From IMG/VR virus record IMGVR_UViG_3300027983_002389: 64,000 nucleotides of DNA; one strand, written 5' to 3'. The notes under the pieces were generated by a model. The model ran no database searches and was not told where the DNA came from. It worked only from the letters and a program-made list of their open reading frames with translations. Shown in pieces: positions 4,488 to 6,372 of the stretch (positions within the stretch are counted from its first letter, which is position 1; each line of letters starts with the position of its first letter). Source of the DNA: a virus. Its lineage: Duplodnaviria > Caudoviricetes. The translations under genes were made by a program, and so were the position numbers.

Positions 4488-6203
4488 ATGGTGATGGCTA
4501 ACAAGAATCTTTTCAAGTCCGAGCGTGGCTCGATTGTTCCGGCAACTGACGTTCTCAACGAAGCTGGTGGTACTGCATACAATTTGACTGCAAAGCAGGC
4601 TCTTGCGCAGTACGTTTGCACTAGCTGTTTGAACGGCACCTACTACACGTCTGCCAAGACGCAACTGGACACTGTTCGTCAGTTGTTTACTGAGGTCGAG
4701 CCTGAGTTCCTTGGGCAGTTGGCTGTGTACTCGCACGAAAAGTCCTTCATGAAGGACTTGCCTGCTCTATTGGTCGCATTCCTGGCATCTGACAAGGGTG
4801 CTGGTGGTGGTCCTACTACGGCAACACAGGAGCGGAAGCTGAAGACGCTTCGTAAGGTTTTCCATCGTGTCATCGACAACGGCAACATGCTGCGCAACTT
4901 TGTGCAGATGATTCGTTCGGCGTCATTTGGTCGGAAGTCCTTTGGTGAAGTGCCTCGCAAGTTGATTCGGGACTGGTTCGACAATAAGTCTCCGGCTGGT
5001 ATTTTCTTCCAAAGCATCGGGAATAGCCCGTCACTGGCAGATATTATCAAGCTGACCAAGCCAAAGCCAAATACGCCTGAAAAGGCTGCTGTGTTGGCTT
5101 ATTTGCTGGGTGCAGAAACCGTTGAAGGCGAAGATGGCAAGTTGCTGGTTCGTCGTTATCTCGACCGTGTTGATAAGCAGGTTAAGGTTGCATACTCGCA
5201 GCCTTATTCCAATCTGCCGGAAATCATTCGTGAATACGAAGCGTGGAAAAAGGACAAGAGCCTCCCGGTTCCTGCCATCAACTTCCGTTTCTTGGACAAC
5301 GAGAAGCTGTCAACTGCTCAATGGGCAGATATTGCTTCTAAGGCAAATTGGCTTACGACCCTGAAGAACCTCAACGCATATGCCGACCACGGTGTATTCG
5401 GCGTTGAAGGCATGACTGACATGATCGCCGCACGTCTCAGCAATGCTGACGAAGTGCGTAAGGTACGGGTATTCCCATATCAGATCATGGTGGCTTACCT
5501 CGCAACCGACACGGTACTTTCGCTTCCGCCCAAGGTCCGTAATGCCATTCAAGATGCTATGGAAGTGGCATGTGAGAACGTGCCAGCATTGGGGAAGGTT
5601 AAGTTCTTCCCGGACGTTTCTGGCTCAATGAGAAGTGCAATTACGGGCGACCGTGGTTCGGCAACTTCTAAGGTTCGGTGTGTTGACGTGGCAGCACTGT
5701 TCGCAGTGGCAATGCTTCGTCGCAACCCGGAAGCGGAAGTAATTCCGTTTGAGCAGACGGTTCGTGAGCTTACTCTGAACCCTCGTGACAGCATCATGAC
5801 CAACGCCACGAAGCTCGCTTCGATTGGTGGTGGTGGAACCAATTGTTCGGCACCGCTTGCTTTGCTCAATGCAAAGAAGGATTGGTCGGCTGACGTGTTG
5901 GTTTATATTTCGGACTATGAGTCTTGGGTGGATAGCACGGGCACGGGCTACCAAGCTGGCAATGGCACAGCACTGCTCAATGAGTGGGTGAAGTACAAGA
6001 GCCACAACAAGAATGCCAAGCTGATTTGTATCGACCTGACCCCTCGTACAAATCATCAGGTCAAGGTCAAGGAACACGATGATATTCTCCAGGTCGGTGG
6101 ATTCTCTGACAACGTATTCAACGTGATCGCAAGATTCGTTGAAGGTGGTTGGTCAAAGGATTTTTGGGTCAAGGAGATTGAAAGCGTTCCACTGGATACT
6201 TAA
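4488..6203 (+). CDS. rsr: Ro60/TROVE-domain RNA-binding protein (TROVE + vWA)
   Basis: NEAGGTAY, MLRNFVQ..RS, VFPYQ, vWA MIDAS DVSGSM, GGTNC, ISDYESW, GFSDNVF. Confidence 0.92.
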   Translation: MVMANKNLFKSERGSIVPATDVLNEAGGTAYNLTAKQALAQYVCTSCLNGTYYTSAKTQLDTVRQLFTEVEPEFLGQLAVYSHEKSFMKDLPALLVAFLASDKGAGGGPTTATQERKLKTLRKVFHRVIDNGNMLRNFVQMIRSASFGRKSFGEVPRKLIRDWFDNKSPAGIFFQSIGNSPSLADIIKLTKPKPNTPEKAAVLAYLLGAETVEGEDGKLLVRRYLDRVDKQVKVAYSQPYSNLPEIIREYEAWKKDKSLPVPAINFRFLDNEKLSTAQWADIASKANWLTTLKNLNAYADHGVFGVEGMTDMIAARLSNADEVRKVRVFPYQIMVAYLATDTVLSLPPKVRNAIQDAMEVACENVPALGKVKFFPDVSGSMRSAITGDRGSATSKVRCVDVAALFAVAMLRRNPEAEVIPFEQTVRELTLNPRDSIMTNATKLASIGGGGTNCSAPLALLNAKKDWSADVLVYISDYESWVDSTGTGYQAGNGTALLNEWVKYKSHNKNAKLICIDLTPRTNHQVKVKEHDDILQVGGFSDNVFNVIARFVEGGWSKDFWVKEIESVPLDT

Positions 6204-6217
6204 TCCAGCTAGGTTTT

Positions 6218-6250
6218 GTTGAGGACCGGGTTGCCGGTCCTCAACTTTTT
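6218..6250 (+). terminator. intrinsic terminator-like hairpin
   Basis: GTTGAGGACCGG-gttg-CCGGTCCTCAAC followed by a T tract. Confidence 0.75.
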
Positions 6251-6372
6251 GGCGGGTAGCTCAATGGTAGAGCAAAAGTAAAAACAAATCTAAGCGATAT
6301 TTGGGCTTCGGCCATGCAGTTTGGATTACATTAACCAACTTTAGGTTGTGTGTTCGATTCACACCCCGCCAG
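6250..6372 (+). ncRNA. tRNA-mimic, Y-RNA-like (permuted YrlA-type) RNA next to Ro60
   Basis: Perfect acceptor (TGGCGGG/CCCGCCA), D-arm and T-arm; anticodon stem AAAGT/ACTTT encloses a 58-nt structured insert instead of an anticodon loop. Confidence 0.8.

What the first reader, a model, noticed from the sequence alone, without database searches (positions are those of the whole stretch)
4488..6372. Ro60 followed by a circularly permuted Y-RNA-like tRNA mimic
Seen: 46 nt after the TROVE stop is an RNA with perfect acceptor, D- and T-arms. Its anticodon loop is replaced by a 58-nt insert (6280-6337) folding as AATCTAAGC/GTTTGGATT, a bulged GATAT/ATGCA helix and a GGC-UUCG-GCC cap. Known: bacterial YrlA RNAs sit beside Ro60 genes, have their 5' and 3' ends in the Ro-binding stem that replaces the anticodon arm, and have a closed acceptor loop. 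Inference: this RNA has the opposite topology, with the Ro stem sealed by a tetraloop and true tRNA-type ends, so it could be processed by RNase P, receive CCA or be aminoacylated. Two RNA ligases and PNK/phosphoesterase-like genes in the window fit an RNA repair or decoy role.
Basis: partly seen in the sequence, partly recalled or inferred. Interest (0 to 1): 0.75.

Follow-up and report, generated by a model that had tools for sequence, protein, structure and literature searches.

The report
Phage Y RNA built in tRNA order
Next to its Ro60 gene, a huge phage encodes a small RNA that is a complete tRNA body whose anticodon loop is replaced by a closed hairpin resembling the stem by which bacterial Y RNAs are thought to bind Ro60. 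This layout recurs in about ten phage lineages, and I found no description of it in the papers or RNA family library I could search.

Summary
Window 6250-6372(+) scores 51.5 bits on the Rfam tRNA model, with 58 nt in place of the 7-nt anticodon loop. It lies 46 nt after a full-length Ro60/Rsr gene (4488-6203).

- A covariance model of the insert hairpin, built only from other loci, finds window 6287-6332 as the top hit (33.7 bits, E about 1e-6).
- The hairpin carries the Rfam YrlA/YrlB consensus features in rotated order: 8-nt ..UUUG loop, AUGC loop, GGAUUACAU strand.
- The same model also hits the junctions between consecutive canonical Y RNAs in bacterial arrays.
- Stand-alone units occur in about ten lineages, nine on phage-like contigs and one in a Myxococcales MAG. 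They have a 7-bp open acceptor and a Ro-type stem sealed by UUCG, GNRA or longer loops.
- Covariation is strong: 25 of 27 pairs show compensatory changes.
- The Acidobacteriota loci examined hold only canonical tandem YrlA arrays.

[quoted passage not shown] Ro60 binding, the RNA ends and any charging are inferred, not shown. The CGAA motif is degenerate in this copy.

Earlier scan notes report rotated, YrlA-like mimics beside Ro60-like genes in other phages.

The parts
4488..6203 (+). Ro60/Rsr (TROVE + vWA) gene, 571 aa
   Evidence: Pfam vWA_Ro60 1.8e-17 and TROVE 2.3e-4. PDB 2nvo Rsr 5.5e-16 over residues 20-553, plus human and Xenopus Ro60 and phage phiLo Ro60. NCBIfam Rsr 86.9 bits over the full length.
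6218..6250 (+). Terminator-like hairpin (12 bp, GUUG loop) and T5 run that abuts the first base of the RNA
   Evidence: Found by the scan. Kept in L004 and L007 with changed stem bases. No sigma-70-like promoter lies between it and the RNA.
6250..6372 (+). The whole RNA: a tRNA-order Y-RNA-like gene, 122 nt plus discriminator G6372. No CCA is encoded; the next bases are CUU.
   Evidence: Rfam tRNA 51.5 bits with a 58-nt insertion. Nearly identical in L004 and L007.
6250..6256 (+). Acceptor stem 5' strand UGGCGGG, which pairs with 6365-6371
   Evidence: 7 of 7 pairs. In the family alignment all 7 acceptor pairs show compensatory changes.
6259..6273 (+). D arm GCUC-AAUGGUA-GAGC
   Evidence: cmscan alignment.
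6275..6279 (+). Anticodon-type stem 5' strand AAAGU, which pairs with 6338-6342 ACUUU
   Evidence: cmscan alignment.
6287..6295 (+). Y helix, strand equivalent to the 3' strand of canonical Y RNAs (AAUCUAAGC)
   Evidence: R2 alignment. Covariation and a conserved U.G at pair 5, present in all 10 units.
6296..6303 (+). 8-nt internal loop GAUAUUUG, matching UuuAUUUG of YrlB and aAaAcUuG of YrlA
   Evidence: Rfam consensus lines; R2 alignment.
6304..6313 (+). Distal stem GGC/GCC closed by a UUCG tetraloop. Canonical Y RNAs have their 5' and 3' ends here.
   Evidence: Sequence. The distal stem covaries in the family: 4 of 5 pairs have changes on both sides.
6314..6318 (+). 5-nt internal loop AUGCA, corresponding to the AUGC of the (C)GAAUGC motif on the 5' strand of YrlA/YrlB
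   Evidence: An HMM of 250 canonical 5' strands places its best window hit at 6314-6331, but with E 3.2, so this is a rank only.
6319..6332 (+). Y helix 3' strand GUUUGGAUU followed by the conserved ACAU (GGAUUACAU)
   Evidence: It matches GGGAUUACAU of the YrlB consensus. UACAU is invariant in 12 family members.
6343..6364 (+). Variable loop AGGUU and T arm GUGUG-UUCGAUU-CACAC
   Evidence: cmscan alignment.
6365..6372 (+). Acceptor 3' strand CCCGCCA and discriminator G
6407..6523 (+). Context: a small Lys-rich ORF (38 aa) with a ribosome-binding site, 34 nt after the RNA. The next terminator-like hairpin is at 6581-6610.
   Evidence: Sequence. The start of the ORF is conserved in L004 and L007. 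Terminator scan.

Best explanation
This is the Y-RNA-type partner of the phage's own Ro60, built with tRNA connectivity.

The RNA folds into a complete L-shaped tRNA body with a 7-bp acceptor, a D arm and a T arm, and all core tertiary positions are present. Where the anticodon loop should be, the stem continues into a 9-bp helix, an asymmetric 8/5-nt internal loop and a short distal stem. This is the same module that holds the proposed Ro60-binding motif in bacterial YrlA and YrlB. Here it is sealed by a UUCG tetraloop instead of ending in the RNA's 5' and 3' termini.

In three dimensions it should therefore look like YrlA, with Ro60 on the extended anticodon-side stem and the tRNA elbow free as the effector-binding module. 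Its chain ends, however, lie at the acceptor.

The likely consequences are inferred:
- The RNA is cut out of a longer transcript by the host tRNA machinery, with RNase P cleaving at U6250 and a 3' trimming step.
- It receives CCA post-transcriptionally.
- It then tethers or gates Ro60 as other Y RNAs do.

Shown here: the structure, its homology to the Y stem, its conservation and covariation, and its linkage to Ro60 genes. Inferred: Ro60 binding, the processing sites, CCA addition and the effector.
For: 1. tRNA body: Rfam tRNA 51.5 bits with a 58-nt insertion exactly at the anticodon loop.

2. Hairpin model: model R2 was built from 9 hairpin units of other loci, with the window, L004 and L007 excluded. 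With filters off, its best hit in the whole window on both strands is 6287-6332, at 33.7 bits and E 1.4e-6. The next hit scores 18.6 bits.

3. Match to canonical Y RNAs: the hairpin strands match the Rfam YrlA/YrlB consensus read in rotated order. GCC-AUGC-AGUUUGGAUUACAU corresponds to cGa-AUGC-UgGcCgGGAUUACAU, and GAUAUUUG-GGC to UuuAUUUG-uCg. R2 also hits the junctions between consecutive canonical YrlA/YrlB units in phage and bacterial arrays, for example L080, L040, L027 and L011 4546-4603.

4. Covariation: on 10 hairpins, 89.8% of cells are paired against 68.8% in shuffles (0 of 500 reach it). Ten of 14 pairs have double changes, and slid controls give 28-60%. RNAalifold on a plain MAFFT alignment of 12 full-length units recovers the acceptor, D stem, Y helix, distal stem and T stem, with 25 of 27 pairs compensated.

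5. Recurrence: stand-alone units have 6-7 of 7 acceptor pairs, and no neighbouring T or D arm forms a closed acceptor with them (the one upstream T arm, beside L020, pairs at only 4 of 7). The tandem L073 and L185 pairs are counted as stand-alone because each Ro-type stem is sealed by its own loop. They occur in the window group, L009, L011/L012, L020, L021, L073, L174, L185/L186, L218/L220 and L223. The sealing loops are UUCG (three times), GNRA or longer hairpins, so these are designed loops and not RNA ends.

6. Linkage: every unit lies within about 2.5 kb of a Ro60 homologue on the same strand. In the Ro60 tree, 6 of 8 members of the window's starred clade have such a unit.

7. Single candidate: in the 340-kb contig of the 94%-identical phage, this is the only R2 hit and no YrlA match passes the cut-off.

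8. Processing: M. smegmatis YrlA, the one YrlA with a 7-bp acceptor, is cut by RNase P and receives CCA in vivo (PMC4201824, read). The window's true tRNA-Met also lacks an encoded CCA. The related contig encodes a PolyA_pol/CCA-enzyme-type protein.
Against: - No experiment or transcript data exist for this RNA.
- The conserved CGAA part of the Ro60 motif (GNCGAAN0-1G in PMC4201824; 'CGAA' in PMC12135203) reads GCC-A here. The change is compensated on the other strand, but it removes bases that may be read directly.
- A sequence-only HMM of canonical 5' strands ranks the site first in the window but is not significant (E 3.2).
- The Rfam YrlA and YrlB models give no hit on the native order, and I could not scan a permuted copy.
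- A strong terminator-like hairpin ends exactly at the RNA's 5' end, and no sigma-70-type promoter is seen, so how the RNA is transcribed is unknown.
- Acceptor stems and discriminators differ among family members, which argues against a shared aminoacylation identity.
Confidence: 0.78

Rival explanations
1. It is an intron-containing tRNA. The 51-58-nt insert is removed and the halves are joined, perhaps by the phage RNA ligases, to give a decoding tRNA.
For: The window encodes two RNA ligases, a PNK-like kinase and a phosphoesterase.
Against: - No reading leaves a normal anticodon loop. The 5' side, AAAAACA, has no U33. The 3' side, UUAACCA, has C37 and A34.
- The only base that differs from the near-identical relatives falls in that 'anticodon', changing AAC to AUC, that is Val to Asp.
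- The insert is too short for a group I or group II intron and has no bulge-helix-bulge geometry.
- The insert itself is the conserved, covarying part and matches Y RNA stems.
- The junction sequences differ freely between family members.
Confidence: 0.04
2. It is a precursor that is rearranged into the canonical Y RNA topology. The acceptor ends are ligated, possibly through a circular intermediate made by the phage ligases. The distal loop is then cut, giving a YrlA-like RNA with its ends in the Ro stem.
For: Two RNA ligases are encoded nearby. In the tandem units of L073, the 3' acceptor strand of unit a pairs 7 of 7 with the 5' acceptor strand of unit b across a 6-nt loop. This is exactly a YrlA-type closed acceptor.
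Against: - UUCG and GNRA tetraloops on 3-6-bp stems are stable caps and are unlikely cleavage sites.
- A 7-bp acceptor is the known RNase P determinant (PMC4201824).
- No nuclease is known for such a cut.
- The single-copy window unit has no neighbouring unit to pair with.
Confidence: 0.06
3. It is a cis-acting part of the Ro60 operon transcript and not a free RNA. It would serve as a tRNA-like processing or stability signal and a Ro60-binding autoregulatory site between the Ro60 gene and the small downstream ORF.
For: It sits between a terminator-like hairpin and the ribosome-binding site of ORF 6407-6523. It has no promoter of its own and no terminator before 6581.
Against: - In other lineages, several units stand in series among tRNA genes and canonical Y RNAs (L011, L020, L185, L220), as free small RNAs do.
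- The full set of tRNA tertiary positions is kept, which is more than a cleavage signal needs.
- The two roles are not exclusive.
Confidence: 0.07
4. It is a decaying tRNA gene that happened to acquire a hairpin insertion and has no function.
For: Relatives at 46% Ro60 identity (L005, L013) have an ordinary tRNA-Thr in the same position after the same kind of hairpin.
Against: - All stems are perfect.
- The architecture recurs in about ten lineages with compensatory changes in every helix.
- The hairpin carries the specific Y-stem motifs.
Confidence: 0.02

Closest known systems
YrlA (Rfam RF02553), the tRNA-like bacterial and phage Y RNA bound by Rsr/Ro60 (Chen et al. 2014, PMC4201824; Wang et al. 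2018, 10.1101/312249)
   Same: - It is encoded next to Ro60 on the same strand.
- It has tRNA-like D and T arms and an acceptor stem, with the tertiary positions kept.
- The anticodon side is extended into a helix, an asymmetric loop and a distal stem carrying AUGC, ..UUG and GG(G/A)AyUACAu.
- The predicted 3D shape is the same.
   Different: - The connectivity is rotated. YrlA runs Ro stem 5' strand, T arm, closed acceptor, D arm, Ro stem 3' strand. This RNA runs acceptor, D arm, Ro-type stem sealed by UUCG, T arm, acceptor.
- The acceptor is open and has 7 bp.
- The Rfam model gives no hit at E up to 10.
- The CGA of the motif is GCC here.
YrlB and phage phiLo Yrl1/Yrl2, simple Y RNAs (RF02565; PMC12135203)
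   Same: The Ro-type stem module is the same. The YrlB consensus GaAUGCUgGcCgGGAUUACAUc / UuuAUUUGuCg is the closest sequence match to the window hairpin.
   Different: These RNAs are plain stems formed by the 5' and 3' ends, with no tRNA body. The module here is an internal hairpin.
[quoted passage not shown]
   Same: It has a 7-bp acceptor that is recognised by RNase P and by the CCA-adding enzyme. The product has tRNA-type ends at the acceptor.
   Different: In M. smegmatis this form arises by nicking a closed acceptor, which leaves an RNA in two pieces that still has ends in the Ro stem. Here the one-piece form is encoded directly.
D. radiodurans Yrn1 (PMC4201824)
   Same: It is a Y RNA with partial tRNA mimicry, and the order of its D- and T-like arms differs from YrlA. 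This shows that topology can vary among Y RNAs.
   Different: Yrn1 still forms its Ro60 site from the 5' and 3' ends. It has an anticodon-like arm, and its D arm is only partial.
Ordinary tRNA (RF00005) and intron-containing tRNAs
   Same: It has a full cloverleaf body and scores 51.5 bits on the tRNA model. It is embedded, in relatives, in tRNA gene arrays.
   Different: It has no anticodon loop, and the 58-nt insert is a conserved Y-type hairpin and not an intron.

Membership tests
Y RNA (functional class: small RNA bound by Ro60) | Gene lies next to a Ro60/Rsr gene on the same strand | tested here: met
   It lies 46 nt downstream of the Ro60 ORF 4488-6203. The same linkage holds in all family members found.
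Y RNA (functional class: small RNA bound by Ro60) | Conserved Ro60-binding motif on the 5' strand of the stem (GNCGAAN0-1G / CGAA, followed by UGC) | tested here: inconclusive
   AUGC and the following GGAUUACAU are present. CGA is replaced by GCC, with a compensating U-A to G-C change. Other members have CCGAAUGC (L174), CUGAAUGC (L020) and GGAAUGC (L009).
Y RNA (functional class: small RNA bound by Ro60) | Ro60 site lies in a stem formed by pairing of the RNA's 5' and 3' ends | tested here: not met
   The stem is closed by GGC-UUCG-GCC (6304-6313). The only free ends possible are at the acceptor.
Y RNA (functional class: small RNA bound by Ro60) | Physical association with Ro60 | not testable with these tools
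   This needs an EMSA or a co-purification.
YrlA (Rfam RF02553) | Match to the covariance model at or above the gathering score (69 bits) | tested here: not met
   There is no YrlA or YrlB hit at E up to 10 in 6100-6500. The positive controls L002 and L003 score 70.9 and 105.5 bits.
YrlA (Rfam RF02553) | Element order is T arm, closed acceptor hairpin, D arm, with the ends in the Ro stem | tested here: not met
   The order here is acceptor, D arm, Ro-type hairpin, T arm, acceptor. No T arm lies upstream and no D arm downstream that could close the acceptor.
YrlA (Rfam RF02553) | tRNA-like D and T arms with the tertiary-interaction nucleotides, and a Ro stem in place of the anticodon arm | tested here: met
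   cmscan alignment and R2 alignment.
tRNA (RF00005) | Cloverleaf that scores above the gathering threshold | tested here: met
   51.5 bits against a threshold of 29.
tRNA (RF00005) | 7-nt anticodon loop with U33 and a purine at position 37 | tested here: not met
   The loop is replaced by 58 nt, and neither junction offers a canonical loop.
Intron-containing tRNA (group I or bulge-helix-bulge) | Intron with a self-splicing core or a BHB motif at the exon junctions | tested here: not met
   The insert of 58 nt folds as one hairpin, with 7-nt and 10-nt junction strands. No Rfam intron family matches.
tRNA-order Y units (family defined here, model R2) | Hairpin with a 9-bp helix, an 8-nt ..yUUG loop, a capped distal stem, an AUGCn loop and GGRAyUACAU. 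It lies inside a tRNA body with an open acceptor of 6-7 pairs. | tested here: met
   R2 gives 33.7 bits and E 1.4e-6, from a model trained without this phage. The acceptor pairs 7 of 7 and no closed-acceptor alternative exists.

The most novel reading that the evidence does not exclude
The open acceptor end is used and is not just a by-product of processing. The RNA would be CCA-tailed and then aminoacylated or bound by EF-Tu or a synthetase. One candidate is the phage's 298-aa GluRS-type enzyme at 1201-2097, which lacks an anticodon-binding domain. Phage Ro60 would then be physically coupled to the translation or tRNA-charging machinery.

A milder form of this reading is evolutionary. These phage units would be the ancestral, unpermuted form. 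YrlA would have arisen from them by tandem duplication and a shift of the transcript ends, with the L073 tandem pair as the intermediate.
Probability: 0.1. Interest if true: 0.9.

Novelty: new variant of a known kind. Interest (0 to 1): 0.68.

Why it matters
- **A general statement about Y RNAs would need revision.** In the papers I read, all characterised Y RNAs present the Ro60 site in a stem made by their own 5' and 3' ends, and tRNA-like Y RNAs are described as circularly permuted tRNAs with a closed acceptor. A recurrent phage family with the opposite connectivity would change that, provided the sealed hairpin does bind Ro60.
- **It opens new experiments.** An RNA with a true tRNA-type acceptor end should be accessible to RNase P, the CCA-adding enzyme and possibly synthetases or EF-Tu.
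- **It suggests how YrlA evolved.** A tRNA could first acquire a Ro60-binding hairpin in its anticodon loop. Permutation could then follow through tandem copies.
- **It bears on annotation.** A dedicated model would improve the annotation of huge phages.

Tried and rejected
1. **Rfam YrlA/YrlB on the native sequence.** No hit. I ran the reverse test instead, applying the hairpin model to canonical arrays.

2. **nhmmer with an HMM of 250 canonical 5' strands.** The best window hit is the right site, but E is 3.2, so it counts as a rank and not as significance.

3. **ARAGORN 'intron tRNAs' beside Ro60 in L019, L150, L156, L027, L080, L040 and many bacterial loci.** I rejected these as members. 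Each straddles two neighbouring canonical YrlA units, whose acceptor halves close with the adjacent T or D arm at 7 of 7 pairs.

4. **Model R1 (whole unit, built from the window and L007).** Ordinary tRNAs score 30-48 bits, so R1 cannot separate the family from tRNAs. I replaced it with the hairpin-only model R2.

5. **BLAST of the RNA against GenBank phages.** Only generic tRNA 5' halves were found. DNA BLAST of 4000-7000 found nothing.

6. **R2 with filters off near the Ro60 genes of isolates.** I searched Myxococcus phage Mx1, Sinorhizobium phage Phosso, Vibrio phage phiKT1024, HGTV-1 and the uncultured phage LR745206. No unit was found, so I found no cultured phage carrying this form.

7. 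**The intron-bearing tRNA-Asp of HGTV-1.** It has no Y motif.

8. **Whole-genome search of the window's own genome.** No genome is held. The 340-kb related contig was used instead.

9. **Isotype of origin of the tRNA body.** No clear nearest tRNA class emerged.

10. **The first regular-expression scans for D arms.** They failed for a coding reason and were redone.
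Full report
**What is in the sequence**

ORF 4488-6203(+) encodes a 571-aa protein that is a full-length Ro60/Rsr.
- Pfam gives vWA_Ro60 at 1.8e-17 and a partial TROVE match.
- phmmer against the PDB gives D. radiodurans Rsr (2nvo) at 5.5e-16 over residues 20-553. Human and Xenopus Ro60 and the Thermus phage phiLo protein also match.
- The NCBIfam Rsr model aligns end to end at 86.9 bits.

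After the stop codon comes a terminator-like hairpin at 6218-6245 with a T5 run. Directly after that lies an RNA gene at 6250-6372.

On a 400-nt scan, the Rfam tRNA model matches it at 51.5 bits (E 2.4e-10). All 71 model positions align, and 58 nt stand where the 7-nt anticodon loop belongs.

Default ARAGORN and the whole-window cmscan miss it. ARAGORN with introns allowed reports 'tRNA-Val(AAC) with a 51-nt intron'.

- acceptor UGGCGGG/CCCGCCA
- D arm GCUC-AAUGGUA-GAGC
- stem AAAGU/ACUUU
- helix AAUCUAAGC/GUUUGGAUU
- cap GGC-UUCG-GCC
- T arm GUGUG-UUCGAUU-CACAC
- discriminator G

The fold is more stable than shuffles (z -2.66).

**What the window is**

The closest Ro60 relative (94% identity) lies on a 340-kb IMG/VR contig. 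The window also carries many genes of translation and RNA repair:
- GluRS-type, MetRS and ArgRS-type genes
- an RF1-domain protein
- an RlaP nucleotidyltransferase
- a PNK-like kinase and a metallophosphoesterase
- an Rnl2-type and an Rnl1-type RNA ligase
- PARP, an ADP-ribosylglycohydrolase, ClpX and a sigma factor

It is therefore a huge phage rich in such genes. No RtcB was found in five related contigs.

**Is the insert a Y RNA stem?**

Two enterobacterial rsr-yrlBA fragments (L002, L003) served as positive controls. They score 105.5 bits on YrlB and 70.9 bits on YrlA, and the output shows the consensus lines.

Read from the tetraloop towards the tRNA body, the window has GCC-AUGC-A-GUUUGGAUU-ACAU. 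The YrlB 5' strand is cGa-AUGC-UgGcCgGGAU-UACAU.

Read from the body towards the tetraloop, the window has AAUCUAAGC-GAUAUUUG-GGC. The YrlB 3' strand is AUCCcGgCuA-UuuAUUUG-uCg.

So the two strands of the canonical Ro-type stem are both present. Their order along the chain is swapped, and they are joined by UUCG.

To put a number on this, I collected Ro60 loci from IMG/VR, metagenomes and GTDB genomes. I then built a covariance model, R2, of the hairpin from nine units of other loci, leaving out the window and its two near-identical relatives.

With filters off, R2's best hit in the 64-kb window on both strands is 6287-6332, at 33.7 bits and E 1.4e-6. The runner-up scores 18.6 bits.

The same model also hits dozens of junctions between consecutive canonical YrlA/YrlB units in bacterial and phage arrays. 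At each junction, the 3' strand of one unit is followed by the 5' strand of the next. This is the reverse of the 'permute and scan' test and shows that the hairpin form and the two-ended form are homologous.

A sequence-only HMM of 250 canonical 5' strands also ranks 6314-6331 first in the window, but at E 3.2, so it counts only as a rank.

**A family, not a one-off**

I applied rule-based checks to every candidate: acceptor pairing between the unit's own ends, and the presence of a neighbouring T or D arm that could instead close the acceptor in the YrlA way. These checks, together with reading the sequences, give stand-alone units in tRNA order in ten lineages:
- the window group (window, L004, L007)
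- L009
- L011/L012, with three units
- L020
- L021
- L073, with two tandem units
- L174, a Myxococcales MAG
- L185/L186, with at least three units
- L218/L220, with two units, one on a class II, Leu-like body
- L223

Their Ro-type stems are sealed by UUCG (window, L009, L073a), by GNRA tetraloops (GCAA in L174, GUGA in L220, GUAA in L223), by other short loops, or by longer hairpins (L011b and c, L020).

Covariation is strong.
- On ten hairpins, 89.8% of cells pair, against 68.8% in shuffles (0 of 500 reach it).
- Ten of 14 pairs have changes on both sides, and slid controls fall to 28-60%.
- One U.G pair is invariant in all ten hairpins.
- RNAalifold on a plain MAFFT alignment of twelve full-length units independently recovers the 7-bp acceptor, the D stem, the Y helix, the distal stem and the T stem. 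Of its 27 predicted pairs, 25 show compensatory changes.

Many ARAGORN 'intron tRNA' calls in the Acidobacteriota loci, and in L019, turned out to be artefacts. Each straddles two canonical YrlA units in a tandem array. Among the 80 GTDB loci, L174 was the only stand-alone tRNA-order unit.

In a FastTree of 99 Ro60 proteins, the window falls in a starred clade of eight, six of which have such units. The other occurrences are scattered among phage branches, and at least five changes are forced.

In the 340-kb contig of the close relative, this unit is the only R2 hit and nothing passes the YrlA cut-off. It is therefore the only Y RNA candidate that these two models detect in that contig.

**How it most likely works**

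The following is shown: the structure, the homology of the hairpin to the Ro-type stem, conservation with covariation, and linkage to Ro60 genes.

The rest is inferred. In 3D the RNA should superimpose on YrlA. The YrlA crystal structure is a tRNA-like L whose anticodon-side stem leads to the Ro60 site (10.1101/312249). Ro60 would therefore sit on the extended stem while the tRNA elbow remains free for an effector. The chain ends differ from YrlA and lie at the acceptor.

A 7-bp acceptor is the major RNase P determinant. M. smegmatis YrlA is the one YrlA that has such an acceptor, and it is cut by RNase P and receives CCA in vivo (PMC4201824). I therefore expect three steps:
- RNase P cleavage at 6249/6250
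- 3' trimming after G6372
- CCA addition

None of the units encodes CCA. The window's real tRNA-Met does not encode it either. The related contig encodes a PolyA_pol/CCA-enzyme-type protein.

Maturation through the tRNA pathway fits the setting. In relatives, the Ro60 gene sits inside tRNA arrays, and an ordinary tRNA-Thr occupies the same slot after the same kind of hairpin (L005, L013).

What the effector is remains open. PNPase, as in D. radiodurans and phage phiLo (PMC12135203), is one precedent.

**Weak points**

- The CGAA core of the proposed Ro60 motif is GCC-A in this copy. The U-A pair has become G-C, so the structure is kept, but bases that may be read directly are not.
- The terminator-like hairpin ends exactly at the RNA's first base, and no sigma-70-type promoter is visible. 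Transcription must therefore come from read-through or from a phage-specific promoter.
- Acceptor stems and discriminators vary (G, A, U, C) across the family. This argues against a common aminoacylation identity.

**Rivals**

A spliced tRNA is unlikely for four reasons:
- No canonical loop can be formed.
- The single difference from the near-identical relatives falls in the putative anticodon, changing AAC to AUC.
- The insert itself is the conserved part.
- The insert has no intron features.

Three other readings get small probabilities: rearrangement into the YrlA topology by ligation and cleavage, a purely cis-acting role in the operon transcript, and a decaying tRNA gene. The reasons are given in the rival explanations.

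**Comparison with what is known**

[quoted passage not shown] The phage Y RNAs described so far are of the two-ended type: those of mycobacteriophages, CcrColossus and phage G (PMC4201824), and phiLo Yrl1/2 (PMC12135203).

I found no description of the sealed-hairpin, tRNA-order form in the literature I could search. Rfam has no family for it.

Earlier notes of this scan describe rotated, YrlA-like mimics beside Ro60-like genes in other phages. One note reads this same stretch as non-permuted.

**Verdict**

This is a real, conserved RNA gene and a new topological variant of the YrlA-type Y RNA. It is present in several huge-phage lineages. The tandem pair in L073 shows how duplication could convert one topology into the other: the 3' acceptor strand of unit a pairs 7 of 7 with the 5' acceptor strand of unit b across 6 nt.

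Noticed in passing
window 811-901 (+): A tRNA-like gene scores 43.8 bits on the Rfam tRNA model and is missed by ARAGORN. Its anticodon loop is CUUAUAA (UAU). A 20-nt extra arm has the loop CUGAUAA, which looks like a second Ile (GAU) anticodon loop. It lies just upstream of the GluRS-type gene. An earlier scan note (e1-5482737) reads it the same way.
   Followed up: partly
L005, L006, L013, L016 and many L103-L182 loci: Ro60 genes of this clade sit inside or next to arrays of ordinary tRNA genes. This holds both in phage contigs and in Acidobacteriota genomes, where tandem canonical YrlA arrays also flank the gene.
   Followed up: partly
L223:4141-4215: A hairpin-form Y module closed by UUCG is held by an outer stem CCCCGGG/CCCGGGG and has no tRNA body. 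It looks like a 'permuted YrlB' and stands between two canonical YrlB-like units.
   Followed up: no
L020:4438-4530 and 4540-4624; L067:4609-4725: These are further odd tRNA-like genes beside phage Ro60. Two have enlarged anticodon arms without a Y motif, and one has an insertion of about 45 nt in the D loop.
   Followed up: no
L001:5165-5280 (Myxococcus phage Mx1, OR576727.2): An unannotated RNA that looks like a canonical two-ended Y RNA (CGGAAUGCGGUGGGACGUACA ... CCCUCCCACC) lies just upstream of tRNA-Gly, about 500 nt after the Ro60 gene. It was read by eye only.
   Followed up: no
L019:2501-4861 and L229:2501-5007: The Ro60 matches span 2.4-2.5 kb instead of about 1.6 kb. The L019 match contains six stop codons when translated straight through, which suggests an intervening element inside the gene.
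   Followed up: no
L073:4235-4504: Two tandem tRNA-order units lie 4-6 nt apart. The 3' acceptor strand of the first pairs 7 of 7 with the 5' acceptor strand of the second, which is the geometry of a YrlA closed acceptor. This is a possible snapshot of permutation by duplication.
   Followed up: partly
window 1201-2097, 13747-15381, 19566-20789, 22557-23165: The window holds a GluRS-type catalytic core without an anticodon-binding domain, which scores best on bacterial gltX (270.8 bits). It also holds a MetRS, a short ArgRS-type protein and an RF1-domain protein.
   Followed up: partly
window 51355-53034 and 61896-62906: A PARP catalytic domain with a WGR domain and an ADP-ribosylglycohydrolase lie near the two RNA ligases.
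   Followed up: no
L004:4770-4892: The ortholog on the 340-kb contig lacks one G of the acceptor 5' strand (UGGCG-G), leaving a 6-bp acceptor with an unpaired C. This may be a homopolymer assembly error. L007 has the full stem.
   Followed up: no
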